From positions 227,871 to 291,870 of the forward strand of contig CALSSE010000007.1 of the NCBI GenBank assembly GCA_943788935.1: a DNA stretch of 64,000 nucleotides, given 5' to 3'. Shown here in pieces: positions 14,875-44,642 of this stretch; positions within the stretch are counted from its first letter, which is position 1; each line of letters begins with the position of its first letter. Source of the stretch: an uncultured bacterium. GTDB taxonomy: Bacteria; Myxococcota_A; Bradymonadia; UBA7976; VGTA01. Under the pieces are notes generated by a model. It saw only the letters and a list, made by a program, of their open reading frames with translations. It was not told where the DNA came from and did not search any database. The translations under genes and the position numbers were made by a program.

Positions 14875-15237
14875 ATGAACAAGACTCTTCTTCAGCAAGA
14901 GGGCGCTCAAGTACGATTTTCGGAGCCCCGTATGATCAATCAGATGAGCTGTTGCCTCTCTCTAGTCGCTCTTTTTCTCAGCGCGCTCGGCGCTTGTAGC
15001 GAATCTGAACCTAACCCTCCAGTGGTTCCACCAATGGCAGGGATGATGGCAGGGACCGAGATGGTCGCTCCTTGTGTGTCCGACTCAGCCTGTGCACCAG
15101 GGACGATCTGTGATGCTGGGTCAGGGACATGTGTACCTGGTCAATGCAGCGCGATGACCCCTTGCCCAGTCAACCAAATGTGTGATCTCAGCACGAGTAC
15201 TTGCAGCTCAGCGATGAATATTGGGGTGCGCCAGTGA
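14875..15237 (+). CDS. N-terminal fragment (lipoprotein signal peptide + Cys-rich module) of the downstream repeat protein, separated from it by a +1 frameshift
   Basis: A lipobox is present (LSALGAC). The motifs CVSDSACAPGTICDAGSGTCVPGQC and ...CPVNQMCDLSTSTC match the start of the next ORF (CASDAECGNGFCVAGTCQNVEC). The stop at 15235 falls where frame 2 opens (15218). Confidence 0.55.
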   Translation: MNKTLLQQEGAQVRFSEPRMINQMSCCLSLVALFLSALGACSESEPNPPVVPPMAGMMAGTEMVAPCVSDSACAPGTICDAGSGTCVPGQCSAMTPCPVNQMCDLSTSTCSSAMNIGVRQ

Positions 15238-30973: not shown

Positions 30974-32423
30974 ATGGGTTTATTTGTAAATACTAACGCT
31001 TCGGCGTTAAACGCTCAGCGCCAGCTGAACTCTACCTCTAACTCTCTCGGCCGCTCATTCGAGCGTCTCTCTTCAGGTCTCCGTATCAACGGCGCCAAGG
31101 ATGACGCTGCTGGCCTCAGCATTACCACTCGCTTCAGCGCTCAGATCCGTGGTCTGAACCAAGCGGTACGTAACAGTAATGACGGGATCTCTTTGGCTCA
31201 GACCGCTGAGGGTGCCCTCAACGAGACCACCAACATCCTTCAGCGTATCCGTGAGCTAGCTGTCCAGTCATCAAATGACACCAACAACGACAGCGACCGC
31301 GCTTCACTCCAAGCTGAGGTCTCTCAGCTGCAGAGTGAGCTTGACCGCATCGCTGAGACCACAAACTTCAACGGCAACAAGGTCCTCGACGGGAGCTTCC
31401 TCGCCAAGAACATTCAGGTCGGCGCTAACGTCGGTGAGACTCTCAGCGTAAGCATTGACGCTGCGGCTACCAAAGACTTGGCTCGCCAAGCACGATATGA
31501 TGGCACCGCAGTGTTGACGCGAATGGTATTCGCTGCTGGAGCTGATGTTCCATCACCTACAAAGATGCTTCATCTAGCCTACGGGTGAGAGTTCTGCGAA
31601 TGTCCGCGCAACGGTCTCAGCTGATGATGGCGTGTCTACCACAGGAACACTTTCTCTGCAATCGCCAAGGCTGCAGCCATCAATGATCTCACTGCAACGA
31701 CTGGAGTTCGAGCGATCGTTAACGCGACAACTGTTGACGGTGGTGACAATCGATGCGGGCTCTCTAAACGCATCTGATTACATTGAGATTAATGGCGAGA
31801 AGATCAGCGGCTTTGATGTTCAAGCAAATGACGCAGACGGCGCTCTCACTGATGCCATTAACGCTGTCTCAGACGAGACTGGAGTCGTTGCATCACTCGA
31901 CAGTGATAGTCAACTTGTACTTACCGCTGCTGATGGTCGCAACATTGAAGTGACAATCACCGGTGGTGCTGCTGACGAGACAGGTCTCGCAACAGGAACT
32001 TCTGCGGGTTCTTTGACCTTGCAGTCAAATAACCAGTACCAAATTGGAGGCGCGACCGCTGCTGCCCTAATCGGCCACGGATCAGGCATCTACGGCGTGA
32101 ACTCAGATAGCTCCGTAAAAGAGCTCGACATCAGCACTCGCGCTGGCGCTGTTCAAGCTCTTGACACCATCGATCTCGCGCTTGAGAACGTCTCTTCTTC
32201 ACGCGCTAAGCTCGGTGCGCTTCAGAATCGTCTTGAGAGCACCATCAACAACCTCAGCACCACCTCTGAGAACTTGAGCGCTTCACGGAGCCGCATCCTC
32301 GACGCGGACTTCGCTTCTGAGACTGCACAGCTCTCTCGCAACCAGATCATTCAGCAGGCAGGTGTCTCTATCCTCGCTCAGGCTAATCAGCAACCACAGG
32401 TCGCGCTCGCGCTCCTCGGTTAA
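30974..32423 (+). CDS. fliC: Flagellin copy 3; it has at least three frame disruptions in the variable domain and is a likely pseudogene unless these are assembly errors
   Basis: Segments lie in different frames: 30974-31588 (N-term), a third-frame segment [35 protein letters not shown] around 31640-31760, and 31632-32423 (C-terminus ...QVALALLG). Confidence 0.7.
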
Positions 32424-32489
32424 TGATCGCTTGATTCACTCGGCGTATTCAGCTGCCGCTTAGGCGTGTTGAGCGTTGAGTAGGATCAT

Positions 32490-32532
32490 AGAAGCCCGTT
32501 TGGTATAGCCAAGCGGGCTTTTTGTGTTTTTG
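32490..32532 (+). terminator. Rho-independent terminator after flagellin copy 3
   Basis: The hairpin and T-tract are identical to those at 30807-30846. Confidence 0.75.
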
Positions 32533-32657
32533 GGCCTGTATTAAAAAAATAAAAGACAGTCACTAAAAAAAAATTGATCTTTGTATCAATATGTCCGAAT
32601 ATTAGCATGCCATCGATGGCACTATTTTAAGCCCCATATAAATTCAAGGAGTGAATC

Positions 32658-34164
32658 ATGGGTTTATTCGTAAATACTAACGCTTCGGCGTTGAACGCTC
32701 AGCGCCAGCTGAACTCTACCTCTAACTCTCTCGGCCGCTCATTCGAGCGTCTCTCTTCAGGTCTCCGTATCAACGGCGCCAAAGACGACGCCGCTGGCCT
32801 CAGCATCACGACTCGCTTCAGCGCTCAGATCCGTGGTCTGAACCAAGCGGTACGTAACAGTAATGACGGGATCTCTTTGGCTCAGACCGCCGAGGGTGCG
32901 CTCAACGAGACCACCAACATCCTGCAGCGTATCCGTGAGCTAGCGGTTCAGGCGTCAAATGACACCAACAACGACAGCGACCGCGCTTCACTCCAAGCTG
33001 AGGTCTCTCAGCTTCAGAGTGAGCTTGATCGTATCGCTGACACCACCAATTTCAACGGTAACAAGGTCCTCGACGGTAGCTTCCTCGCCAAGAACATTCA
33101 AGTCGGCGCCAATGTCGGTGAGACACTCAGCGTAAGCATTGACGCAGCAGGCACTAAAGACCTCGCTCGTCAAGCTCGTTATGAGAGTGATACTTTCGTA
33201 AATGACGCAGCCTTCAGCACAGCAGCAAACACCTTCTCAATCTCATCGGCGGATCGAACCAACGGTGTTACTTTTGTAGATGTTCGTGGCACCGTTGACG
33301 CTGATGACGCTTTCTCTACAACGGGTAAAGACTTCTCAGCGATCGCCAAGGCTGCCGCGATCAATGATCTCTCCAACACCACAGGTGTACGAGCGATCGT
33401 TGGTGAAACAGAAGTAGAAGCAGCGGGTGCAGTGGGAGCGGTTACTCTAAACGCTTCTAACTTCGTAACCATCAATGGCGAAAAAATCGCCGGCTTCGCA
33501 TGTCGCGTCGAATGATGCAGATGGGAATCTCTGTCGACGCGATCAACGCTGTCTCTGATGACACAGGTGTCGTGGCTGGGCTCAGCTCAACAGGAGCCTT
33601 AACGCTTACCGCTGCTGATGGTCGTAATATCGCTGTCGAGTTCAGCGGGGCTGCCGTTGCTGATGCTGTAGGATTTGATGGCTTTACTGCAGCAGCCACC
33701 ATCGTTGCGAGTACGGTGCTACAGTGACTGAGTTTGTGGCCACCGCTAAGATCACCCTCCAATCTGATAGTGACTTTGAGATCGAAGTTGGCTCTGCGAG
33801 CACCTTCGCAGGCTTCACTGATGATGGTGTCTACGGAGTGAACTCAGATAATTCTGTGAACACACTCGACATCAGCACTCGCGGTGGCGCTGTGCAAGCT
33901 CTTGACACCATCGACCTCGCGCTTGAGAATGTCTCTTCTTCACGCGCTAAGCTCGGTGCGCTTCAGAACCGCCTCGAGAGCACCATCAACAACCTCAGCA
34001 CCACCTCTGAGAACTTGAGCGCCTCACGGAGCCGTATCCTCGACGCGGACTTCGCCTCTGAGACTGCACAGCTCTCTCGCAACCAGATCATTCAGCAAGC
34101 GGGTGTATCTATCCTCGCTCAGGCTAATCAGCAGCCACAGATCGCGCTCGCGCTCCTCGGTTAA
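32658..34164 (+). CDS. fliC: Flagellin copy 4; it has about three frameshifts in the variable domain
   Basis: The pieces are 32658-33515, 33500-33727 and 33724-34164. Two shifts fall within ~40 bp at ~33490-33530 ([21 protein letters not shown]) and one at ~33710. Confidence 0.7.
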
Positions 34165-34227
34165 TGATCGCTTGATCAACTCAATACACCTAACGGCTGC
34201 TTAGACAGCTGTCGGCGCTGAGTTTGA

Positions 34228-34268
34228 TAACAGGGAAGCTCGCTTGGCTAGGTCAAGCGGGCTTTTTT
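34228..34268 (+). terminator. Rho-independent terminator after flagellin copy 4
   Basis: The hairpin CTCGCTTGG-cta-GGTCAAGCGGGC is followed by TTTTTTTGTTTTT. Confidence 0.65.
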
Positions 34269-34274
34269 TGTTTT

Positions 34275-34355
34275 TGGCCTTTGGCTCTGACTTTGGCTCT
34301 GACTTTGGCTCTGGACTTTGGCTACTGACTTTGACTTTGACTTTGACTTATGACC
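34275..34355. repeat. Tandem repeat CTTTGGCTCTGA / CTTTGA, ~8 units
   Basis: It lies immediately after the terminator of flagellin copy 4. Confidence 0.8.
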
Positions 34356-34478
34356 AGGGCTGATTGGTGAAGGTATCTTGGAGACAAAAATAAATTGAAA
34401 TCTGACGCAAAGTAACCGACACTAGTCAGGCCATCGATGGCATTATTTTAAGCCCCATACAAATTCAAGGAGTGAATC

Positions 34479-35976
34479 ATGGGTTTATTCGTAAATACTA
34501 ACGCTTCCGCGTTAAACGCTCAGCGCCAGCTGAACTCTACCTCTAACTCTCTCGGCCGTTCATTTGAGCGTCTCTCTTCAGGTCTCCGTATCAACGGCGC
34601 CAAGGACGACGCGGCTGGCCTCAGCATCACTACTCGCTTCAGCGCTCAGATCCGTGGTCTGAACCAAGCTGTACGTAACAGTAATGACGGGATCTCTTTG
34701 GCGCAGACCGCCGAGGGTGCGCTCAACGAGACCACCAATATCCTCCAGCGTATCCGTGAGCTAGCGGTTCAGTCGTCAAATGACACCAACAACGACAGCG
34801 ACCGCGCTTCACTCCAAGCTGAGGTCTCTCAGCTCAAGAGTGAGCTTGATCGCATCGCTGAGACCACTAACTTTAACGGTAACAAGGTCCTCGACGGCAC
34901 CTTCCTCGCCAAGGACATCCAAGTGGGCGCCAACGTTGGTGAGACTCTGAGCGTCAGCATCGATGCAGCGGCTACCAAAGATCTCGCGCGCCAAGCTCGC
35001 TACGAAGGCGATTCATTTGTCAGCGCAGCCTCTTTCACAGCAGCAGGCAACTTTGCGCTCTCTCAAGCAGGTACAAACGGCGGTACTTTCGTTGACGTTC
35101 GCGCAACGGTAGCTGCAGATGATGCACTATCTACTACGGGTAAAGATTATTCTGCGATCTCTAAAGCGGCTGCGATCAATGATCTCACAGAGACTACAGG
35201 CGTCCGAGCGATCGTTGGGCCAACAACCGTCGCCGGTACTGCAAATGCAGTAGATGGTATCGCCCTGAACGCGAGTAACTTCTTCGAGATCAATGGTGAG
35301 AAAATCGCCGGCTTCACTGTCGCTGACAATGATGCTGATGGTAACCTCGTTGATGCCATTAACGCTGTGTCTGATGAGACCGGTGTCGTGGCGAGTCTAA
35401 GCGCTAACAGTGAGCTCACCCTCACCGCGGCCGACGGTCGTAACATTGAGCTTACATTTACAGGTGCAAACACTGCAGGAAGCCTCGGTTTTGGTGCAGG
35501 CACTAATGCTGCGCACTGCCGCTGCAGCAACGGTTGTTGCAACTGGTCAGATCACCCTTCAATCAAATGAAGCGTTTGAGATTGATACAGGAAATGCAGG
35601 CTCTTCTACTCTGATTGGCTTTAACACTCAAACAGAAGGAGTCTACGGCGTTAACTCTGAGGAGAGCGTCTATCAGCTCGACATCAGCACTCGCGATGGC
35701 GCTGTTCAAGCTCTTGACACCATCGACCTCGCGCTTGAGAACGTCTCTTCTTCACGCGCTAAGCTCGGTGCGCTTCAGAATCGTCTTGAGAGCACTATCA
35801 ACAATCTCAGCACTACCTCTGAGAACTTGAGCGCTTCACGGAGCCGCATCCTCGACGCGGACTTCGCTTCTGAGACTGCACAGCTCTCTCGCAACCAGAT
35901 CATCCAGCAGGCTGGCGTGTCTATCCTCGCCCAGGCTAATCAGCAACCACAGGTCGCGCTCGCGCTCCTCGGTTAA
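34479..35976 (+). CDS. fliC: Flagellin copy 5; it has one frameshift (~35505) in the variable domain
   Basis: The pieces are 34479-35570 and 35410-35976. Across the junction ...GTNAA|[21 protein letters not shown] is restored by a 1-nt shift. Confidence 0.8.
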
Positions 35977-36153: not shown

Positions 36154-37059
36154 ATGAACATTCCCTACTTTCACGTTGACGCCTTTACCCAAAATAGGTT
36201 TAGCGGTAACGCGGCAGGTGTATGCTTGCTCTCTAGCCCCTTGAGTGATCAAGTTCTCCGGCAGATGGCTCAAGAGCATCATCTCGCTGAGACCGCCTTT
36301 GTTACCGTCGATGAGAGCCAACTTCAGCTGCGTTGGTTCACTCCTGAGCTAGAGATGGATCTCTGTGGTCATGCGACTTTAGCAGCGGCTCATGTGCTCT
36401 TCTCAGAGGGACGAGCGCAGCGATGGCTCAAGGAGCAAGGGGTACAGCTAGGAGATCAAATCTGCTTTAGCACTGTGAGTGGTGTCATCTCTGTTTACAC
36501 TCACCCCTCAATGGGGATGAGCTCATCGTACACATTAGATCTGCCAGAGCGAGCTCCTACTCAGCTCTCTGAGTGGGGAGATGATCCACAGGTCACGCAG
36601 ATCATCAAGGCTCTCGGTCAGAACCCCATTGAGGTGTGGCGCTCTCGTGATGTCCTCTGCCTCTTTGAAGATGCGGAGAGGGTTCGATCTTTAAACCCCG
36701 ATCCTCTCTTGATGGGAGCCGTTGAGCTTGGGACTGGTGGAGTGATCGTGACCGCGAGCGGTCTTCATGAGCAGAGACGTCACTCTTCGGGGAGGAGAGC
36801 TGACTTTATCTCACGCTTCTTCACCCCCCAGGCAGAGCTGTTTGAAGATGACGTCACAGGCTCAGCACATTGCACTCTGGGGCCCTTCTGGTCTCAGAGA
36901 CTCAACGTTGATGATTTAGTGGCTTACCAAGCCTCAGAGAGAGGAGGATGGCTGACGGTGAGAGTCTTTAACGCCGCTCATAATGACGGGCCGATACGCG
37001 GTAGAGTCTGGGTTAGCGGAGAGGCGGTCACTTATATGGAGGGGACGCTCAGAGTATAG
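36154..37059 (+). CDS. PhzF-family phenazine-biosynthesis-like isomerase
   Basis: The N-terminus MNIPYFHVDAFTQNRFSGNAAGVCLL and the 301-aa length are typical of the PhzF/YddE fold. Confidence 0.75.
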   Translation: MNIPYFHVDAFTQNRFSGNAAGVCLLSSPLSDQVLRQMAQEHHLAETAFVTVDESQLQLRWFTPELEMDLCGHATLAAAHVLFSEGRAQRWLKEQGVQLGDQICFSTVSGVISVYTHPSMGMSSSYTLDLPERAPTQLSEWGDDPQVTQIIKALGQNPIEVWRSRDVLCLFEDAERVRSLNPDPLLMGAVELGTGGVIVTASGLHEQRRHSSGRRADFISRFFTPQAELFEDDVTGSAHCTLGPFWSQRLNVDDLVAYQASERGGWLTVRVFNAAHNDGPIRGRVWVSGEAVTYMEGTLRV

Positions 37060-37092
37060 CCTACTCAGCCTCCAACTCAAGCGAGCTGAGGG

Positions 37093-37428
37093 TTATGTGA
37101 TCTCTTCACCACACTCCTCAACGACCCACTGCAGATAAGGCTGATAGGAGTGATCTTCATCGATCTTTAGCGCTAATATCTCGGGTAACTCATAGGGATG
37201 TAGACGCTTGATCTCTTGGACACAACGCTCAAGGACCTCATCACTGACCTTAGCGGTTAAGGTGATCTCTTGATCAATACAAATCTCGCCCTCCCAACGA
37301 TAGACGCTCTTGACAGGGCTTAAAGTGACGCAGGCGGCGAGCCTGCTCTCTATCAGTTGGCGAGCGATCGACTCAGCGTCCTCTTTAGGGAGATTACTGA
37401 TCACCAGGGCGGTAGGGCTTGAGTTCAT
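37093..37428 (-). CDS. cutA: Divalent-cation tolerance protein CutA
   Basis: The CutA1 fold sequence is present: ...LVISNLPKEDAESIARQLIESRLAACVTLSPVKSVYRWEGEI...YELPEILALKID. The track ORF (to 37506) overlaps the pepP end, so the internal Met (MNSSPTALV) is taken as the start. Confidence 0.7.
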   Translation of the reverse strand: MNSSPTALVISNLPKEDAESIARQLIESRLAACVTLSPVKSVYRWEGEICIDQEITLTAKVSDEVLERCVQEIKRLHPYELPEILALKIDEDHSYQPYLQWVVEECGEEIT

Positions 37429-37435
37429 ATTGAGT

Positions 37436-38725
37436 TTAGCCTCGAGCGGCCATGATCGACTCAATCTCATGAATCTCGCGGGGGCAATCAGCGGAGAGCA
37501 CCTCACAGCCGCCTTCGGTCACTAAGATGTCATCCTCGATACGAATTCCGATCTCCTCTTTAGCGATGTAAATCCCCGGCTCGATGGTGATCACCATCCC
37601 GGCGCGGAGGGGTTCACGCTGAAGACCAGAGTCGTGGACATAGAGACCGACAAAGTGGCCTAGGCTGTGAAAGTAATCGTCGGCGTATCCCGCCTCGTCG
37701 ATCACTTGACGAGCGATCTCGTTGAGCTGCGCCCAGGTGACGCCTGGGCGAACCGCCGCTACTGATGCTTTCCACGCGTTAAGGACCACTTGATAGACCT
37801 CGGCTTGTCGAGGAGTAAAGGTGCCGTTGACAGGGAAGGTGCGGGTGATATCAGAGGCATACATCTCGTATTCACAGCCCACATCACAGAGCACTAACTC
37901 ACCGTCTTTCATCACCTTTCGATTTTGACCATAGTGTAAGACACAGCTGTTGAGTCCAGACCCAATGATCGGCGCATAGGCGTTACTGTGACTCCCTTCA
38001 CGTCTAAAGTGACTCTCGAAGACATATTGTAGCTCGGACTCATTCATCTCAGGCTTTACGCTCTGCATGGCTTTCTTAAAGCCCTCTACCGTGATCCCCA
38101 CCGCTCGTCGCATGATATTGATTTCGTCCTCATCATGAACAGAGCGCATACGAGGTAAGAGCTCATGACCATCGCGGATCTTACTGTTTAAAATACGAGC
38201 GCTAGCGTCTCGGAGCACTTGTAGCTGCTTGGGAATGGGAGAGGTGTATCCAACCATCGATCCCAAGTAAACAAGGTCACGTTCTCTTGTATTAAGAATA
38301 GCATCGGTGAGCATTCTTGGTAATAGAGTAGTACGCATAACCTTAGCGATCCCCGTGCCGAGCTCGATAGCGCGACTTAAGATCGGTCGGTTACCGTGCC
38401 AGCGATTATCTTCTACATCGAGAGGGCGTAGGAAGAGGATCTCTTTATATTGTGGATGCTCTGGAGCGAGCAGTAGAGCCGCTCCCCCCTCAAACTCTAG
38501 ACCGGTGAGGTAGAAGAAATCGAGGTCTTGTCGCTGACCATCACCCACATGATCTGCGGCAAAGATCAAGGCGACCCCACTCTCCATCCCCTCCATTAGT
38601 CGTTGACGTCGTAGGCGATAAGTCTCTGCAGGGATAGGACCCGTCGGCGTAGGGATGCCCTCTACGTTGTGAGGGAGAGGTCGCTTAATATTAGGGGTCT
38701 CTAGAGGTCTCTTCGCGTGTTCCAT
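37436..38725 (-). CDS. pepP: Xaa-Pro aminopeptidase (M24B family)
   Basis: M24 metal-ligand motifs are present: VLCDVGCEYEMYASDITRTFPV, HSLGHFVGLYVHD, VITIEPGIY and IRIEDDILVT. Confidence 0.8.
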   Translation of the reverse strand: MEHAKRPLETPNIKRPLPHNVEGIPTPTGPIPAETYRLRRQRLMEGMESGVALIFAADHVGDGQRQDLDFFYLTGLEFEGGAALLLAPEHPQYKEILFLRPLDVEDNRWHGNRPILSRAIELGTGIAKVMRTTLLPRMLTDAILNTRERDLVYLGSMVGYTSPIPKQLQVLRDASARILNSKIRDGHELLPRMRSVHDEDEINIMRRAVGITVEGFKKAMQSVKPEMNESELQYVFESHFRREGSHSNAYAPIIGSGLNSCVLHYGQNRKVMKDGELVLCDVGCEYEMYASDITRTFPVNGTFTPRQAEVYQVVLNAWKASVAAVRPGVTWAQLNEIARQVIDEAGYADDYFHSLGHFVGLYVHDSGLQREPLRAGMVITIEPGIYIAKEEIGIRIEDDILVTEGGCEVLSADCPREIHEIESIMAARG

Positions 38726-38846
38726 GCTGGCTCCTTATCTGATCTCTTTGATCTTAGCGGAGCACAGCTTACCCTCTCTATAAGCCCTCGTCAAACCCCC
38801 ATATATTCATGTTTACACAGTGTGGCGATCTACAGAGTAAACATGA

Positions 38847-40577
38847 TCAGAATCGGAACTGGGCGATGAAGCTGAGTTCCTCTTGGACGAGGTTGATAAA
38901 TCTGTCTTCACCACCCATGGCCTCGGTATTATATTGTCCCTTCTCGACGATTCGCTTGTTGTAAACCACCGAGAAAACCCCGATGTCACGATAGTAAAAG
39001 AAGTGAGCGGCTGCGCGATACTGCATCTCATCTCTAGGCTCTCGAACGGTATCAGATGTTGGAACCCCTTTGAAGGGCTCTGCTTGATAGTTGCCAAAGT
39101 CGCCTGCAAGCATGAGGACTTTGGGAATCGCGAGGAAACCTAACTGGGCGTGCCAAGCTGCTTGCTTAGACTCAAAAGCGAGTTCATTCTTCCAATAGTG
39201 CTCTGCGAGGAGGACCATCCGCCGGTAGCGAATCGCTGCCTGGATATTGGTAGAATAAAACTCTTCTTCTTCACGCCTGTCATACTTTCCACCTGCGAGA
39301 ATACCGATGGTGAGAGGAACGGGGACATAGAGGAAGGGTGTATCAAAGCGACTGTAGTAGCCGACAAGATTGATCCCGAGCTGAGCGCCTGCTGACCATG
39401 GGTAATTGAGCGATTGATTACCTAGGCTGCGGCCACCGATATTGCCGTCGAATCGTCCATTACCCCCCGCGCCAAAGACGCGGTAGCGCAGGGTGTTGGT
39501 GTCGTTGAGAGGACCACTGACCTCAACTGCAGCTGAGTTGAACTGCTCAAAAGCTCTAAAGACGTTTGTGCGGCGGACGAGGAGCTGTTTGTGAACCGAG
39601 AGTGCTTGCGCTTGGGAAAGGCCTGCTGCCCCGCTGTTGATCGTCAGCATGTGTCGTGACTTAAAGATCGGAAGACTGAACATCGCAAAGGTCAAACGAG
39701 GCGTCTTCTCAGTGAGCATACTGATCAGATAAAAAGAATTCTCGATCTGGGGGATAGGACCAAAGGTACGAAGCTGTAGCCGTGACACTCGAGTATCATA
39801 GGGAGAATTGTCTGCTTCATCGGCGGCGAGATCTACTTTGTGCATCATCTGTCCGACGATTGAGAAGCGCATGTTTGGTGAACCACGACAGACCTGTACG
39901 CTGCCGTCAAACTGACAACCAGGGTCTTCACAGTCTATCTTGCCGTCATTATCATTATCGATCCCATCTGAGCATAAATAATCATTACGCTCACCGTCTT
40001 GATCTGTCCCTGCGCCGATGAGATCGAGAGGGTCGCCTGAAGACATTTGAGCACCACTGGTGCTCACACTTGAAGAGCTAGACTTGACTGTCGTTGTTGC
40101 GCTAGAAGCGCTCTTTTTTAGCGCAGCATCCCAAGAGCCTTCACAGGCGCTGATCAGCTCAGTTTGGCAGTCTTGATCATCGCAGTCAGTCACGCCATCT
40201 TCATCATTGTCTACCCAGTCGCGGCAGCGCGCATTAGTGTTCTCGGGACGACCATCAGGCTTACATTGAGTGTTCTCTTTGCAATCATTGTCGGCGCAGT
40301 CAGCGACGCTGTCTTTGTCGTTGTCGATCCCATCGCCACAATTAACCTCTTTAGCCTTCTTTGCCTCAGCAATCGATCCCGATGCGCTGAGAGCGACAAA
40401 GCCAAAGAGAAGTGAGAGGGCGAAGAGCATGGAGTGAGCCCTCGCTTGGATGAGTCCTGTATGTGATCGAGTGCTGTTCATCGCAGTTAGCTCGCTTGAT
40501 GTATGTTTTGGAGAGGGGGCGTCGGTGTTTTGACGAAGGAAAGTTAGGGTAGAGTGTTCGAAGTTAAGTAGTCTCAT
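38847..40577 (-). CDS. Outer-membrane protein: N-terminal Cys/Asp-rich metal-binding-like repeats fused to a probable beta-barrel that ends in Phe
   Basis: The repeats include CGDGIDNDKDSVADCADNDC, CRDWVDNDEDGVTDCDDQDC and CSDGIDNDNDGKIDCEDPGC. The C-terminal ~350 aa are Gly/Tyr/Asn-rich with alternating hydrophobics and end ...FIAQFRF. The start overlaps the stop of the upstream gene. Confidence 0.55.
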   Translation of the reverse strand: MRLLNFEHSTLTFLRQNTDAPSPKHTSSELTAMNSTRSHTGLIQARAHSMLFALSLLFGFVALSASGSIAEAKKAKEVNCGDGIDNDKDSVADCADNDCKENTQCKPDGRPENTNARCRDWVDNDEDGVTDCDDQDCQTELISACEGSWDAALKKSASSATTTVKSSSSSVSTSGAQMSSGDPLDLIGAGTDQDGERNDYLCSDGIDNDNDGKIDCEDPGCQFDGSVQVCRGSPNMRFSIVGQMMHKVDLAADEADNSPYDTRVSRLQLRTFGPIPQIENSFYLISMLTEKTPRLTFAMFSLPIFKSRHMLTINSGAAGLSQAQALSVHKQLLVRRTNVFRAFEQFNSAAVEVSGPLNDTNTLRYRVFGAGGNGRFDGNIGGRSLGNQSLNYPWSAGAQLGINLVGYYSRFDTPFLYVPVPLTIGILAGGKYDRREEEEFYSTNIQAAIRYRRMVLLAEHYWKNELAFESKQAAWHAQLGFLAIPKVLMLAGDFGNYQAEPFKGVPTSDTVREPRDEMQYRAAAHFFYYRDIGVFSVVYNKRIVEKGQYNTEAMGGEDRFINLVQEELSFIAQFRF

Positions 40578-41947
40578 TCGCAGACCCTCGGCTGATCATC
40601 ACAGATCGTCACACCGGGGTTATGACTGCAGTCCCAGTCTTCGCAGTCAGTGAAACCGTCACCGTCGTTATCAACTTGGTCATTGCAGCGAGCATTTGCT
40701 TCAGAGAGAGATCCAGCACTCTCCTGACAGACTTTCTTAACCTCTTCATCAGATGATCGACTGCAAGAGTATTCTTCACAATCTGTCTCACCATCATTAT
40801 CGTTGTCGATGCCATCGCTGCAACTCTCAACGGTCGCTTCACAATATGCCTTTACTTCAGGGTCATCGCTACGACTGCAGGAGTAGTCATCACAGTCGGT
40901 GAAGCCATTACGATCATTATCTTTACCGTCGCTGCATTTCTCAAGGCTGACCTCAAGAACAGAGTCGCAATAAGCGACGATTTCTAGATTATCACTCTGG
41001 CTACAAGAATAGTCGCCACAGTCGGTAAAGCCGTTACCATCATTATCCTCTCCATCTTGACACTGCTCTAGGGTGTTCTCACCAAGAGAGTTACAGTAGC
41101 TGACGATGTCTTGGTTATCGCTGCGTGAACAGCTAAAGTCTCCGCAGTCAACGTAGCCGTTGCCGTCGTTATCAATGCCATCTTGACATTGCTCTAGGGT
41201 GCTCTCACTGAGAGATTCGCAATAGCTGACAATCTCGGGATTATCGCTGCGTGAACAGCCAAAATCTCCGCAGTCGACGTAGCCGTTTCCGTCATTATCA
41301 CCGCCATCTTGGCAACGAGCTAAGGTGTTCTCTTCACCTTGTTCAACCTCAGTCGCAGGTTCTTCGCTCGCTGCGCTCTCTAGCATACACTCCTCATCTT
41401 CAGAGTCGATCTTTCCATCACGGTCATTATCGAAGCCATCTGAGCAAAGGTCCTCTCCTGTTTCTCTTGTCAGGCAGACGGTAACGTAGATTCCACGTCG
41501 GCAACCAAAGTCTTCACAGTCAGTGAAGCCATTATCATCATTGTCGATCCCATCACTACAGGTTTCATTAGTGAACTCTCGTCCACAGCACAGCTCAGCG
41601 ATTTTTTGGCATTTACGATCACCACAGTCGTAGTTACCGTCATCGTCATTGTCTTGCCCATCGGTGCAAAGTACGAAGGTGTTCTCTTCCTCGTAGACGG
41701 GATTTAGGGGGACATAGACGCCGCAGAGGGTCGACTTTTGAAGACAACCGGTGTCTGCACAGTCGATCAAACCATCGTTGTCGTTATCAATCCCATCACT
41801 GCAGGATGTATCATCAAACTCATAGCCCATGACTGGGAGAGGCGGTTTCTTAAAGCTCTCGCAGCTTAATAGGCTCAGCGATAGCATCACTAGAGCGATG
41901 AGAGAGAGTGAGCAGCTCAAATGCTCTTTGCATACGTGGCTCATCAT
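40574..41947 (-). CDS. Lipoprotein made almost entirely of Cys/Asp-rich repeats (~40-aa unit x ~8)
   Basis: A lipobox is present (LSLLSC). The repeated unit is C-x-DG-x-DND-x-[ND]G-[YF]-[TV]DC-x-D-[FY]-[GS]C-S-[RQ]-SD-x-x-[EI]-V-x-[AS]-YC. The stop/start overlaps with the neighbouring genes on both sides. Confidence 0.6.
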   Translation of the reverse strand: MMSHVCKEHLSCSLSLIALVMLSLSLLSCESFKKPPLPVMGYEFDDTSCSDGIDNDNDGLIDCADTGCLQKSTLCGVYVPLNPVYEEENTFVLCTDGQDNDDDGNYDCGDRKCQKIAELCCGREFTNETCSDGIDNDDNGFTDCEDFGCRRGIYVTVCLTRETGEDLCSDGFDNDRDGKIDSEDEECMLESAASEEPATEVEQGEENTLARCQDGGDNDGNGYVDCGDFGCSRSDNPEIVSYCESLSESTLEQCQDGIDNDGNGYVDCGDFSCSRSDNQDIVSYCNSLGENTLEQCQDGEDNDGNGFTDCGDYSCSQSDNLEIVAYCDSVLEVSLEKCSDGKDNDRNGFTDCDDYSCSRSDDPEVKAYCEATVESCSDGIDNDNDGETDCEEYSCSRSSDEEVKKVCQESAGSLSEANARCNDQVDNDGDGFTDCEDWDCSHNPGVTICDDQPRVCE

Positions 41948-42927
41948 TTAAGACACACTGCTCTGCTCGCGCCAAAGCGACGTCGGAAGTCTACATAAAG
42001 CATGCAGGTCTCTACATCAGATTGGGCGGCTTCAACCCAACCAGCGCTCTTCATCGCCTCAAAGGCGTTCTTTGCGTCCGCTGAGTGAGCGTCGTTCTTT
42101 ACTTTGATCTTGGCGCCACTGTCGAGTGCAGCGGTGACCGCCTCGATTTGCTCTGCTTCACTATACTTCTCAATCCAAGCGCTAAGCTCTTTGCGTTTGG
42201 CCCAACGTGCTGCAAAGCGTTTGTAACGATCCTCTTTGGAAGGTTTCCAGCACACATCTTGGCACTCTTTGTAGGCATCATCATGCTTCCACTTGAGTGA
42301 GTGTCCATCTACACTTGACACGAGACGGTTATAGGTTGCGCGGTCACCACTACGCTCACTCGTAGAGTGAAGTGAGGTCAATACGTACTCAGGGACGCCA
42401 TGTGCCCAAATTCCACGTTTATTGACAACTGCCTCTCGCTGAGCAGCGACCGCATGAGCTTCTGCTGACTCTGAAGTCACGGTCATCGCATGAGCAAGAC
42501 CTTTTTTGATCTGATCGACGACAAGGCCTGGACAGACCCAAAGATAGCGACCGTAGGTGTCTGTGCTCAAGTCTGAGGTACAGGTCCATACACCCTCGCG
42601 AGCATTGTAGGTTCCCATCTTTGCTAGCGCATAGAGTTCTTTCTTAGTCCAATCTCCCCAAGAGTGAACTGCGCCATAACTTTCGAGGGTGTTAAAACCC
42701 GCAAGACGCGCTTTACTCCCCTTGAGGTCGCCAGAGAGAACTCGGAAGCTGTCACCGTCATTGAAAAATACGGGGGCATCTTTACCGTTTAGTTTAACTC
42801 GTGTCCGAGGCGTCGCCTCTGCGAGGCTAGAGCTCAAGAGGGTCGCTACAGCGATCATACAGAGAAGAGGGCTCATCTTTGATGAGATTAGATTTAGGCT
42901 GAGCATAAGACCTCCAAGTGAATACAC
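41944..42927 (-). CDS. Secreted SNase/thermonuclease-like nuclease, paralog B, with a C-terminal extension
   Basis: A signal peptide is present. The stretch NDGDSFRVLSGDLKGSKARLAGFNTLESYGAVHSWGDW...YGRYLWVCP aligns with ORF 13883-14584 and with the SNase GDT...RL.G.D.PE / R motifs. Confidence 0.6.
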   Translation of the reverse strand: MYSLGGLMLSLNLISSKMSPLLCMIAVATLLSSSLAEATPRTRVKLNGKDAPVFFNDGDSFRVLSGDLKGSKARLAGFNTLESYGAVHSWGDWTKKELYALAKMGTYNAREGVWTCTSDLSTDTYGRYLWVCPGLVVDQIKKGLAHAMTVTSESAEAHAVAAQREAVVNKRGIWAHGVPEYVLTSLHSTSERSGDRATYNRLVSSVDGHSLKWKHDDAYKECQDVCWKPSKEDRYKRFAARWAKRKELSAWIEKYSEAEQIEAVTAALDSGAKIKVKNDAHSADAKNAFEAMKSAGWVEAAQSDVETCMLYVDFRRRFGASRAVCLK

Positions 42928-43141
42928 GAGTGGGTATCAGTGTGGGTATGAGTGCTGCGACTATTAGGGAGAGATGACCCTAAAGTCAATATCCGCCATG
43001 TATCTAACGATGTTAGGGAGCGGTGATGTCTAGCGCTTAGAGTCGCGCTTCAGTTTACAGCGCTTCAGTTTATAGGTATCAATGTCATCGACAACAATAA
43101 GTTCATCATGCTCGTTATGAGCATATGAGAGGAGCGTTATC

Positions 43142-43711
43142 ATGAACTCTTTATCGACCCCTAGGCAAGCAAGACAGAGTATATTCGTCATATCCCTGCT
43201 GCTCGTCTGTGCTTGTTCAAGGTCGCCATACGAGGGAGCGAGCAATTATGACTGTCAAGGCGGAGATCGATTGATCCTCAATGAGAGATTGTTTTGTGTC
43301 TACACAGAGCCCAGGATGAGCAGACCGGAGCCACAAGCAGCGGGTGAAGAGGAGACAGCAGCGGGTGAAGAGGAGATAGCAGCGGGTGAAGCGACAGGAG
43401 GAGAGTCTGCCGAGGTGGAGATGATCCTCGCTGATGACCCTCTCTATTGTCCACCAGAAGTACCTGTTTCCCAAGGGTATGAGACGCTCGTCATCTGCGC
43501 TGAGGAAGAGGTGAGCGCGCCCCTTCTTGAGGCGGTGGTCGCTGAATGGGGGTCTCTATACCTCACCGCTGAGGGCGGAGATCAGACGAGTGATATGGGG
43601 ATGTCCAACGTCGATGTTCAAGTCACTGATACTCAATCTACTGATGCTCAAGTCACTGATGAAGAGAGTATAGGTGTTGATCCACTACTTGACTACGCGG
43701 TCACTGAGTAG
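43142..43711 (+). CDS. Hypothetical acidic lipoprotein with an (AAGEEE) repeat
   Basis: A lipobox is present (LLLVCACS). A 21-bp DNA repeat encodes AAGEEETAAGEEEIAAGE. Confidence 0.45.
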   Translation: MNSLSTPRQARQSIFVISLLLVCACSRSPYEGASNYDCQGGDRLILNERLFCVYTEPRMSRPEPQAAGEEETAAGEEEIAAGEATGGESAEVEMILADDPLYCPPEVPVSQGYETLVICAEEEVSAPLLEAVVAEWGSLYLTAEGGDQTSDMGMSNVDVQVTDTQSTDAQVTDEESIGVDPLLDYAVTE

Positions 43712-44642
43712 CGAGCTGTGAGTCTCTCGCGTTGAGCTTGGCGCGGATCACTAAAAGGGCGATCCCTGAGCAAAAGACAACCCCGAGGCTGATAAACTGT
43801 GAGGTAGATAAGAAGGTCACACTCCCTACGGGTAGACCTAGAAACTGATTGAGTGGCTCATAGACGACTCTCGCGATAAAGCCTCGCTCGCTGTCTCCTC
43901 GGAAGAGCTCTACGATTGAGCGCATCAGTGGATAGAGGAAGAGCCACCACATGAATACTTGGCCATGATAGCGCTTATTTCGACGAATCCAAGTGAGGAC
44001 GATAAAGAGGCCTAGACCATAAAGACTGTCGTAGATCTGAGTCGGGTGGATCGCTAAAGCGTGCTCAGCGTTAGCGCTGATAAGATGCTGTTCAACATGT
44101 TGCCTAAAGACCATCGATCGACGAGGGAACTCTATCCCCCAAGAGAGGTCAGTGACTTTACCCCAACAGCAACCAGCGGCTAAGCAACCCATGCGCCCAA
44201 AGAATTGACCGATGGCGAAAGCGGGCATCAGCGCGTCAGCTAATGGTAAGAGCTTGACCTTATAACGTCGACTGAACCACATTAAGACCAAGAAGCCCCC
44301 TAAGAAGGCTCCATAGAAGACTAAACCACCGCTCCAAACGGCGATGAGCGGCCAACAATCAGCTTCTGCGAGCTGAGCACTGGGGTTTAGAGTGTTGTAA
44401 TATTCATAATCAACACAGGGATACCAATGGTCTTGCCAGTTAACGATCATGAAGATCACTCTCGCCCCTAGATAGCCACCAAGTATGAGCCACCAACAGA
44501 GGTCGAGGAGCGTGAGCCTATTGAGTCCGGCCTGGTCTCCATAGCGGACCACGAGCCATATCCCCATCACACACCCTAGAGTGATCATGAGAGAATATAA
44601 ATAAAGAGGGTAATTCCCTATTTCAAAGAGGATCGGATGCAT
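43701..44642 (-). CDS. lgt: Prolipoprotein diacylglyceryl transferase
   Basis: The protein is multi-TM. The conserved Lgt regions are GQFFGRMGCLAAGCCWG and HPTQIYDSLYG. Confidence 0.75.
   Translation of the reverse strand: MHPILFEIGNYPLYLYSLMITLGCVMGIWLVVRYGDQAGLNRLTLLDLCWWLILGGYLGARVIFMIVNWQDHWYPCVDYEYYNTLNPSAQLAEADCWPLIAVWSGGLVFYGAFLGGFLVLMWFSRRYKVKLLPLADALMPAFAIGQFFGRMGCLAAGCCWGKVTDLSWGIEFPRRSMVFRQHVEQHLISANAEHALAIHPTQIYDSLYGLGLFIVLTWIRRNKRYHGQVFMWWLFLYPLMRSIVELFRGDSERGFIARVVYEPLNQFLGLPVGSVTFLSTSQFISLGVVFCSGIALLVIRAKLNARDSQLATQ

What the first reader, a model, noticed from the sequence alone, without database searches (positions are those of the whole stretch)
38847..42927. Three-gene operon: nuclease, then repeat lipoprotein, then repeat protein fused to an outer-membrane beta-barrel
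The three genes 41944-42927, 40574-41947 and 38847-40577 are on the minus strand with 4-bp overlaps. The last protein joins three N-terminal Cys/Asp repeats to a ~350-aa C-terminal region that looks like a beta-barrel and ends in ...FRF, an OMP C-terminal signature. The repeat motif is therefore displayed in three topologies in this window: as a lipoprotein, as a soluble secreted protein, and fused to an OM barrel. This suggests a modular surface system.
Basis: partly seen in the sequence, partly recalled or inferred. Interest (0 to 1): 0.65.

Follow-up and report, generated by a model that had tools for sequence, protein, structure and literature searches.

The report
Conserved myxobacterial nuclease–lipoprotein–porin operon
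Three tightly packed genes, kept together across the phylum Myxococcota, encode an exported staphylococcal-nuclease-like enzyme, an extremely acidic repeat lipoprotein, and a porin-type outer-membrane barrel with three of the same repeats on its (probably periplasmic) N-terminal arm; the parts are recognisable but nobody has studied the combination.

Summary
Three minus-strand ORFs lie at the stated coordinates with ATGA overlaps.

- **Gene 1** has a staphylococcal-nuclease (SNase) fold. Five of six catalytic-site residues are invariant, and D40 is always Asn. A 147-aa C-terminal domain has no structural match.
- **Gene 2** is a lipoprotein (lipobox LLSC) with 10 copies of the NCBIfam NF033662 "acidic double-disulfide repeat" and a net charge of about -89.
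- **Gene 3** has a signal peptide, 3 of the same repeats, and a 346-aa domain. AlphaFold2 models that domain as a 16-strand barrel, and Foldseek matches it to OmpU/OmpF/OprP/PorB/OmpM1 (probability 1.0). It has an L3-like internal loop and ends in QFRF.

The order nuclease, lipoprotein, barrel was kept in 19 related loci plus the window (Bradymonadia, Polyangiaceae, Nannocystaceae, Sandaracinus). Flanking genes differ, so the unit is exactly these three genes.

Porin topology puts the barrel's repeat arm in the periplasm, not on the surface. The "third topology" (a soluble secreted protein) carries a different repeat family (PF11617).

The function is inferred, not shown. My best guess is a Ca2+-dependent nuclease station docked under a dedicated porin for nucleic-acid scavenging. 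The barrel domain matches no Pfam family, and I found no literature on the system.

The parts
41944..42927 (-). Gene 1: Sec-exported SNase-fold (thermonuclease-family) protein. The ORF is 327 aa from GTG 42927; the likely true start is ATG 42906 (320 aa). The SNase domain covers about aa 40-180. A 147-aa C-terminal domain with 4 conserved Cys has no structural match. pI is about 9.
   Evidence: All 47 orthologues hit PF00565 at E<=0.01. AF2 pLDDT is 92.7. The only real Foldseek hit is SNase 1syb (E=2e-3, TM 0.59). Invariant D59, R74, N79, E82 and R127 correspond to SNase D21, R35, D40, E43 and R87.
42960..42989 (-). Promoter-like site (TTGACT-18-AATAGT) upstream of gene 1. This is a consensus match only.
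   Evidence: 9 of 12 matches; sequence.
40574..41947 (-). Gene 2: hyper-acidic repeat lipoprotein, 457 aa. The mature protein has net charge about -89, pI 4.05 and 41 Cys.
41861..41947 (-). Signal peptide and lipobox of gene 2 (MMSHVCKEHLSCSLSLIALVMLSLSLLS|C).
   Evidence: A Cys follows a hydrophobic stretch in all 15 orthologues whose N-terminus could be read.
40601..41803 (-). Array of 10 NF033662 acidic double-disulfide repeats (C-x14-C-x4-C-x5-11-C with a DxDNDxDG core). The fourth copy is degenerate.
40884..41311 (-). 126-bp tandem DNA array (3.4 copies, 75 % matches) behind repeats 5-8 of the lipoprotein.
38847..40577 (-). Gene 3: repeat-arm porin. The ORF is 576 aa. The functional start is possibly Met50 (40430) or Met33 (40481).
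40362..40430 (-). Signal peptide of gene 3 (MLFALSLLFGFVALSASGSIAEA).
   Evidence: (the 98 % identical P0001 is called from this Met).
39888..40340 (-). N-terminal arm. Repeats 1 and 2 are followed by a low-confidence Ser/Thr-rich linker, a conserved DxDGERND segment, and repeat 3, which abuts strand 1. Net charge is about -23. The arm is inferred to be periplasmic.
   Evidence: (12 invariant Cys).
38850..39887 (-). 16-strand porin-like beta-barrel domain (346 aa, no Cys, pI 9.2).
   Evidence: pLDDT mostly 85-97 in the strands. (OmpU, OmpF, OmpC, OprP, PorB, OmpM1; probability 1.0, E about 1e-9, TM about 0.6 per target). (dyad hydrophobic pattern). (no Pfam family in 58 members).
39534..39635 (-). 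Conserved 34-residue loop between strands 5 and 6 with short helices. It occupies the position of the L3 constriction loop of general porins.
38850..38876 (-). C-terminal beta-signal (LSFIAQFRF). The terminal Phe is invariant.

Best explanation
This is a conserved three-gene envelope operon of Myxococcota.

Shown:
- Gene 1 is a Sec-exported, basic SNase-fold phosphodiesterase with an almost complete SNase catalytic set.
- Gene 2 is a lipoprotein made of 7-11 (here 10) acidic four-Cys repeats with a DxDNDxDG core.
- Gene 3 is a 16-strand porin-type outer-membrane channel with an L3-like inner loop and three of the same repeats on its N-terminal arm.

Inferred:
- The repeats are Ca2+-binding, disulfide-stapled modules.
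- The arm hangs from the periplasmic rim of the porin, as the SLH domain does in OmpM-type porins.
- The arm, the repeat lipoprotein and the basic nuclease assemble under the pore by repeat-repeat, Ca2+-bridged or electrostatic contacts.
- The assembly is a nucleic-acid scavenging station. Oligonucleotides or nucleotides (or their phosphate) pass through the dedicated channel and are cut by the Ca2+-dependent enzyme, and the repeats hold Ca2+ and the enzyme in place.

My confidence in the anatomy is about 0.9. My confidence in the proposed function is about 0.35.
For: - Gene structure and overlaps.
- Repeats: NF033662 well above the cut-off (262.8 and 99.9 bits against 41); 12 invariant Cys in the arm.
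- Barrel: AF2 gives 16 strands; Foldseek matches porins including OprP and the periplasm-anchored OmpM1; lumen-facing conserved R/K/E/H residues and a conserved strand 5-6 loop; C-terminal Q[FY]RF.
- Topology: the odd-numbered loops are long and L1, L7 and L8 are variable, while the even-numbered turns are short.
- Nuclease: PF00565 in 47 of 47 orthologues, a profile hit to thermonuclease, a fold hit to SNase, and invariant D59/R74/N79/E82/R127.
- Complementary charges: nuclease +7, lipoprotein -89, arm -23.
- Linkage: the same order and strand in all 19 related loci plus the window, with unrelated flanks.
- No convincing terminator between the genes.
Against: - No experiment and no paper bears on the system.
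- The Ca2+ ligand D40 is invariably Asn, and several extra invariant His residues suggest an altered metal site or substrate.
- The window protein itself is just below the Pfam SNase cut-off (19.2 against 21 bits).
- Nothing shows that the three proteins touch each other. No multimer model could be run.
- Channel selectivity is unknown.
- The location of the lipoprotein (periplasmic face or surface) is unknown.
- A few family members have the barrel without repeats (P0259, P0255), so the arm is not needed for the barrel as such.
Confidence: 0.35

Rival explanations
1. Surface display. The lipoprotein is exported to the cell surface, possibly with the help of or through the partner barrel (as with Slam substrates or RcsF threaded through OmpA/C/F). 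The nuclease is released. The acidic repeats form a surface layer for adhesion, prey contact or extracellular-DNA handling.
For: - The lipoprotein gene lies directly upstream of, and is co-conserved with, a barrel gene.
- Acidic Ca2+-type repeats are common in surface proteins.
- Other Cys/Asp repeat proteins in the window look secreted.
- Myxococcota are predators with rich surface proteomes (general knowledge).
Against: - The barrel matches 16-strand general porins, not Slam (14 strands, DUF560), Omp85 or autotransporter barrels.
- The loop pattern puts the N-terminal arm in the periplasm.
- No known surface-lipoprotein export signal can be tested for this phylum.
- The 'third topology' uses a different repeat.
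Confidence: 0.2
2. Structural envelope tether. The porin arm and the long repeat lipoprotein form Ca2+-stiffened struts that link the outer membrane to peptidoglycan or to the inner membrane. This would be functionally like OmpM-SLH, OmpA with TSP3 repeats, or Lpp. The SNase-fold protein would be an accessory or a non-nuclease binding module.
For: - The architecture parallels OmpM1, which is among the fold hits.
- Conservation in several orders suggests housekeeping.
- The variable repeat number (7-11) would tune length.
- There is a conserved periplasmic turn T4.
Against: - No peptidoglycan-binding domain (SLH, OmpA_C, LysM) is detected in any of the three proteins.
- The strict linkage with an enzyme that keeps its catalytic residues invariant is not explained.
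Confidence: 0.2
3. Autotransporter-like secretion. The C-terminal barrel exports its own N-terminal repeat passenger to the surface.
For: The order is N-terminal passenger then C-terminal barrel, with a flexible Ser/Thr linker inside the arm.
Against: - There are 16 strands, not 12.
- The top 50 fold hits are almost all general or substrate-specific porins. The one other barrel, the polysaccharide secretin 4y25, is at rank 40, and there are no type V barrels.
- No helical linker crosses the pore. Repeat 3 is about 6 residues from strand 1.
- The lumen is occupied by an L3-like loop.
Confidence: 0.05
4. Chance neighbours: three unrelated genes that happen to be adjacent.
For: None beyond the lack of functional data.
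Against: - The order and strand are identical in all 19 related loci plus the window, spanning several orders. Flanking genes are shared by at most 3 loci.
- Two of the genes share the same rare repeat.
Confidence: 0.02

Closest known systems
General and substrate-specific 16-strand porins (OmpF/OmpC/OmpU/PorB; OprP/OprO)
   Same: - 16 antiparallel strands.
- A long loop between strands 5 and 6, as for L3.
- A polar, charged lumen.
- A C-terminal aromatic-x-Phe signal.
- Foldseek probability 1.0, TM about 0.55-0.64 per target.
   Different: - No sequence-level relationship. No Pfam or NCBIfam porin model is hit in 58 members.
- phmmer against 1.84 billion representatives finds only 55 clusters, and none of the six retrieved was a classical porin.
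- It carries a roughly 160-aa repeat arm.
- Oligomeric state and selectivity are unknown.
Outer-membrane attachment porins with an N-terminal periplasmic domain (OmpM1 of Veillonella, PDB 8bym; SLH-porins of cyanobacteria and Deinococcus-Thermus)
   Same: The architecture is signal peptide, periplasmic N-terminal module, linker, porin barrel. OmpM1 is among the fold hits.
   Different: - The N-terminal module is three acidic double-disulfide repeats, not SLH.
- The binding partner is unknown.
- It is encoded with a lipoprotein of the same repeats and with a nuclease.
Staphylococcal nuclease / thermonuclease family (PF00565, COG1525 YncB)
   Same: - The fold.
- A Pfam hit in all orthologues.
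- Equivalents of D21, R35, T41, E43 and R87 are conserved.
- It is exported and basic.
   Different: - D40 is invariably Asn.
- There are extra invariant His and Trp residues and three conserved Cys pairs.
- A 147-aa C-terminal domain has no structural match.
- It is fixed in an operon with outer-membrane proteins.
NCBIfam NF033662 acidic double-disulfide repeat; related Cys/Asp metal-binding motifs (PF11617 MopE motif, thrombospondin type 3 repeats, LDL-receptor class A modules)
   Same: - Members by HMM score.
- A DxDxDG-type acidic loop framed by disulfides, as in Ca2+-binding TSP3/LDLa modules (general knowledge).
   Different: - The family is catalogued, but I found no functional study.
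- PF11617 and TSP_3 are not hit.
- The Cys spacing differs from the PF11617 repeats present elsewhere in the window.

Membership tests
NF033662 acidic double-disulfide repeat | HMM score above the curated cut-off (41 bits) | tested here: met
   262.8 bits with 10 stretches (lipoprotein) and 99.9 bits with 3 stretches (barrel protein).
NF033662 acidic double-disulfide repeat | Four Cys per repeat forming two disulfides | tested here: inconclusive
   Four Cys per unit in 12 of 13 repeats, and 12 invariant Cys in the arm. The disulfide pairing itself is not testable here.
SNase / thermonuclease (PF00565) | Pfam gathering score (21 bits) | tested here: not met
   The window protein scores 19.2 bits, E=0.0017. 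All 47 orthologues hit at E<=0.01, best 1.7e-6, and several carry precomputed PF00565. The family is therefore a divergent member.
SNase / thermonuclease (PF00565) | OB-type SNase fold | tested here: met
   AF2 pLDDT 92.7. Foldseek hit to 1syb: probability 1.0, TM 0.59 per target, 23 % identity over 154 columns. Profile hit to PDB thermonuclease at E=0.003.
SNase / thermonuclease (PF00565) | Catalytic and Ca2+ residues D21, R35, D40, T41, E43, R87 | tested here: inconclusive
   D59, R74, E82 and R127 are invariant and T80 is conserved in at least 90 %. The spacings match SNase to within one residue (D-to-R 15 against 14, R-to-E 8 against 8, E-to-R 45 against 44). D40 is invariably Asn (N79). 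The equivalence rests on the Pfam coordinates and my manual register. hhalign aligned only the C-terminal part reliably.
SNase / thermonuclease (PF00565) | Ca2+-dependent hydrolysis of DNA/RNA | not testable with these tools
   Needs an enzyme assay.
General bacterial porins (Pfam Porin_1/Porin_4 clan) | Sequence match to a porin family model | tested here: not met
   No Pfam family at E<=1 for the window protein and none at E<=0.01 in 58 homologues.
General bacterial porins (Pfam Porin_1/Porin_4 clan) | 16-strand barrel with an inward-folding loop 3 | tested here: met
   The model has 16 strands and a 34-residue conserved loop between strands 5 and 6. Fold matches to porins. That the loop folds inward is inferred from its position, because the coordinates were not inspected.
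Outer-membrane beta-barrel protein (BAM substrate) | C-terminal beta-signal ending in an aromatic residue, usually Phe | tested here: met
   ...AQFRF. F527 is invariant and R526 is conserved in at least 90 %.
Bacterial lipoprotein | Signal peptide with a lipobox [LVI][ASTVI][GAS]C | tested here: met
   LLS|C in the window. A Cys follows the hydrophobic region in all 15 orthologues whose N-terminus could be read, mostly with good lipoboxes. Acylation and final location are not testable here.
Type V autotransporter | 12-strand C-terminal barrel with a helical linker through the pore | tested here: not met
   16 strands and no linker helix. No type V barrel is among the top 50 fold matches.
Operon (co-transcription) | Same strand, short or negative gaps, no terminator between genes, conserved order | tested here: met
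   Transcript continuity itself was not tested (needs RT-PCR or RNA-seq).

The most novel reading that the evidence does not exclude
The three proteins form a previously undescribed outer-membrane machine of predatory Myxococcota. A dedicated porin uses its Ca2+-loaded repeat arm to dock a hyper-acidic repeat lipoprotein and an SNase-type enzyme into a 'feeding port' that takes up and digests prey nucleic acid. Alternatively, the lipoprotein is threaded through its partner porin to the surface, which would be a new route of surface-lipoprotein export.
Probability: 0.12. Interest if true: 0.75.

Novelty: new variant of a known kind. Interest (0 to 1): 0.45.

Why it matters
Each part belongs to a recognisable class: porin fold, SNase fold, and a catalogued repeat. 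Three things are new.

- The barrel domain is a compact family that no Pfam or NCBIfam model covers.
- The repeat has no known function.
- I found no description of the fixed trio.

The trio is conserved in at least four named groups (Bradymonadia, Polyangiaceae, Nannocystaceae, Sandaracinus) of a phylum known for predation and complex envelopes. It therefore probably serves a basic envelope or nutrient-acquisition function. It gives a concrete, testable entry point for three questions:

- What do acidic double-disulfide repeats do?
- How do Myxococcota use exported nucleases?
- Do porins with periplasmic arms exist outside the SLH/OmpM type?

Tried and rejected
- **PDB sequence search.** Single-sequence phmmer of the nuclease against PDB gave only noise. 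A family profile was needed.
- **hhalign.** The alignment of the nuclease profile to SNase put the N-terminal strands in the wrong register (F61-R62 on F34-R35, skipping the DGD motif). I rejected that part in favour of the register supported by residue spacing and by the Pfam coordinates.
- **Genome scan.** It mostly returned unrelated repeat proteins from many phyla and cannot show presence or absence in cultured genera.
- **Databases with no result.** PADLOC gave no defence-system match. Rfam gave no riboswitch or leader (a DnaX-like hit at E=0.41 is chance).
- **Literature.** Four searches found nothing on the repeat or the operon.
- **Fourth gene.** I looked for a fourth conserved gene and found none. 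The other conserved 'clusters' are antisense shadow ORFs inside the three genes.
- **Readings rejected.** I considered and rejected autotransporter, Slam-like translocon, Omp85/TpsB and chance adjacency (see rival explanations).

Full report
**1. What is in the sequence**

Each junction is an ATGA overlap.

Two starts need comment.
- A strong GGAGG lies 5 nt before ATG 42906. The 100 % identical database protein P0121 is 320 aa. Gene 1 therefore probably starts 21 nt inside the ORF.
- In gene 3 the hydrophobic signal peptide begins only at Met50 (ATG 40430, GAGGG upstream). A 98 % identical protein is called from that Met. However, the overlapping ATG 40577 also has a GAGGG 7 nt upstream. In the nearest relatives the roughly 50-codon extension stays open although its sequence is not conserved. 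The true start is unresolved. In the worst case the gap is 147 nt.

The terminator and promoter scans give nothing above shuffled expectation inside the cluster: 8 terminator-like sites against 4.0 +/- 2.3, all weak and inside coding sequence. The best-placed promoter-like site is at 42960-42989, just upstream of gene 1. No Rfam element is present.

**2. The repeat**

NCBIfam NF033662 ("acidic double-disulfide repeat") matches the lipoprotein with 10 stretches (262.8 bits, E=5e-80). It matches the last protein with 3 stretches (99.9 bits, E=4e-29). The cut-off is 41 bits.

The unit is C-x14-C-x4-C-x5-11-C with a DG-x-DND-x-DG-xx-DC core. A 126-bp tandem DNA array (40884-41311) underlies repeats 5-8.

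An HMM built from the 12 clean units and run on the six-frame translation of the whole window finds the repeat only in these two genes. Two other Cys/Asp-rich proteins exist in the window:
- 4738-7080 is a lipoprotein with an FGE-sulfatase domain.
- 15221-17725 has two PPC domains.

Both carry the different PF11617 "MopE" motif (CxGxDDDCDG) and do not match NF033662.

**3. Gene 3 is a porin with an arm**

The C-terminal 346 aa have no Pfam or NCBIfam hit. The same is true of all 58 aligned homologues.

A homologue search found 198 proteins. All are unnamed or "hypothetical" and come from Myxococcota (Bradymonadia, Polyangiaceae and others). They are typically 500-590 aa, with the same layout and a Q[FY]RF end. 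Scoring against 1.84 billion cluster representatives found only 55 clusters. I retrieved six of them and none was a classical porin, so the family is compact and isolated at sequence level.

AlphaFold2 on a 58-sequence alignment gave mean pLDDT 82 (85-97 in the strands) and 16 beta-strands. Foldseek against PDB returned OmpU, BpsOmp38, OmpC, OmpF, OprP/OprO, PorB, chitoporin and the attachment porin OmpM1, with probability 1.00, E about 1e-9 to 1e-7 and TM about 0.55-0.64 per target.

The strands show the alternating hydrophobic/polar pattern of a membrane barrel, with conserved R/K/E/H in the polar phase. A 34-residue, highly conserved loop with short helices sits between strands 5 and 6, which is the position of porin loop L3. 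The barrel has no Cys.

**4. Topology**

Counting from strand 1, the odd connections are L1 (10 aa), L3 (34), L4 (22), L7 (17) and L8 (10). They are long, and L1, L7 and L8 are unconserved. The even connections are 1-8 residues, except for a conserved 14-residue T4.

This is the standard porin pattern, with surface loops on the odd connections and both termini in the periplasm (established knowledge of porin structure). Repeat 3 ends about 6 residues before strand 1 (CRGSPNMRF). The arm has 12 invariant Cys and a variable, low-confidence Ser/Thr linker between repeats 2 and 3.

I therefore infer that the arm hangs in the periplasm, as the SLH domain does in OmpM-type porins. It is not displayed on the surface. 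This is an inference, not a measurement. A few family members (P0259, P0255) have a signal peptide followed directly by the barrel, or by a Pro-rich linker, without repeats.

**5. Gene 2**

It has a signal peptide with lipobox LLS|C. The mature protein has 429 aa, 41 Cys, 114 Asp+Glu, net charge about -89 and pI 4.05.

In the related loci the orthologue has 7-11 repeats. In all 15 orthologues whose N-terminus could be read, a Cys ends the hydrophobic stretch. Also conserved are a "GYE" segment before repeat 1 and a "DWDCSxNPxVTVC...VCE" end. Whether it faces the periplasm or the outside cannot be decided from sequence in this phylum.

**6. Gene 1**

The window protein is just under the Pfam SNase threshold (19.2 against 21 bits). 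All 47 aligned orthologues hit PF00565 at E<=0.01. A family profile hits PDB thermonuclease at E=0.003. The AF2 model (pLDDT 92.7) has SNase as its only real structural match (1syb, probability 1.0, TM 0.59 per target, 23 % identity).

Invariant D59, R74, N79, E82 and R127, plus T80 (at least 90 % conserved), line up with SNase D21, R35, D40, E43, R87 and T41. The spacings agree to within one residue. The Ca2+ ligand D40 is always Asn, and several His and Trp residues are additionally invariant, so the metal site or the substrate may differ.

Residues 181-327 form a confident alpha/beta domain with two conserved Cys pairs and no PDB match. The protein has a Sec-type signal peptide, is not a lipoprotein, and is basic (pI about 9, +7).

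**7. Linkage**

I looked up encoding contigs for close and distant homologues. I then ran tblastn of the three window proteins against all fetched loci.

The order nuclease, lipoprotein, barrel on one strand is present in all 19 related loci that have enough upstream sequence, as well as in the window. These loci come from Bradymonadia, Polyangiaceae, Nannocystaceae, Sandaracinus and a 9.3-Mb complete genome. The loci that lack the nuclease hit are those cut within 2 kb of the barrel gene.

Clustering all flanking ORFs shows that only these three genes are shared. Any other real gene is shared by at most 3 loci. Gaps between genes 2 and 3 are -4 to about 45 nt in the distant loci checked. This is strong comparative evidence for a functional unit of exactly three genes.

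**8. How it most likely works**

Shown: an exported SNase-type enzyme, a lipoprotein of acidic Cys-stapled repeats, and a porin-type channel with the same repeats on its N-terminal arm, inherited together.

Inferred, in decreasing order of confidence:
- (a) The repeats bind Ca2+. They have a DxDxDG-type loop framed by disulfides, as in TSP3/LDLa modules.
- (b) The arm is periplasmic.
- (c) The shared repeat mediates association of the arm and the lipoprotein. The basic enzyme is held by the polyanionic, Ca2+-loaded scaffold, and SNase-type catalysis needs Ca2+.
- (d) The porin admits nucleic-acid fragments, nucleotides or phosphate, which the enzyme processes. This would be a scavenging station suited to predatory or saprophytic Myxococcota.

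I give (d) about 0.35. The rivals are a surface-display system (0.2), a Ca2+-stiffened envelope tether with an accessory enzyme (0.2), autotransporter-like export of the arm (0.05) and chance adjacency (0.02).

**9. Comparison with known systems and novelty**

At the fold level the barrel works like a general or specific porin. In architecture it resembles OmpM-type porins with a periplasmic arm. It is not a member of any sequence-defined porin family (membership test failed).

The enzyme is a divergent member of the thermonuclease family. The repeat is a bona fide NF033662 member, and I found no functional literature on that family. I found no description of the trio.

I rate it a new variant of known kinds. 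It is of real but moderate interest. Its interest would rise considerably if the proteins prove to form a dedicated uptake and digestion port, or a new lipoprotein-through-porin arrangement.

Noticed in passing
window 30974-35976 (+): Three tandem flagellin paralogues each appear split into an N-terminal ORF and a C-terminal ORF (30974-31588/31632-32423, 32658-33515/33724-34164, 34479-35570/35410-35976). The N-terminal ORFs end in out-of-frame residues. These are either frameshifts in the variable middle domain (assembly indels) or pseudogenes.
   Followed up: partly
window 4738-7080 (-) and 15221-17725 (+): Two other Cys/Asp-rich repeat proteins carry the PF11617 'MopE putative metal-binding motif' (6 and 7 stretches). 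One is a lipoprotein fused to an FGE-sulfatase domain. The other has two PPC domains and no clear start or signal peptide in the listed ORF.
   Followed up: partly
L026-L088: Matches limited to the NF033662-type acidic repeat region turn up in MAGs labelled Planctomycetes, Fibrobacterales, Saprospiraceae, Bdellovibrionota, CPR (Kaiserbacteria, Magasanikbacteria, Peribacteria) and even archaea (Nanoarchaeota, Methanosarcinales). The repeat is therefore far more widespread than the barrel family.
   Followed up: no
L089 (ENA ERZ10646634 contig_17747) against window 36847-42927: A 99.8 % identical contig has 2 indels that truncate the nuclease (291 aa) and shorten the lipoprotein call (418 aa). 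These are likely assembly errors and a reminder that indels occur in assemblies of this organism.
   Followed up: yes
window 40430-40577 (-): The roughly 50-codon extension upstream of the porin's signal peptide stays open in the nearest relatives (P0002, P0004, P0007, P0009-P0014), but its sequence is not conserved. Both the overlapping ATG and Met50 have a GAGGG upstream. This could be translational coupling or an unusually long n-region.
   Followed up: partly
window 43142-43711 (+) and 43701-44642 (-): A divergently transcribed small acidic putative lipoprotein (189 aa, no family hit) lies next to the operon, followed by lgt (prolipoprotein diacylglyceryl transferase). The arrangement is conserved only in close relatives (L001, L008).
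   Followed up: partly
window 40884-41311 (-): The 126-bp tandem array (3.4 copies, 75 % matches) in the lipoprotein gene, together with 7-11 repeats among orthologues, indicates ongoing expansion and contraction of the repeat number.
   Followed up: partly
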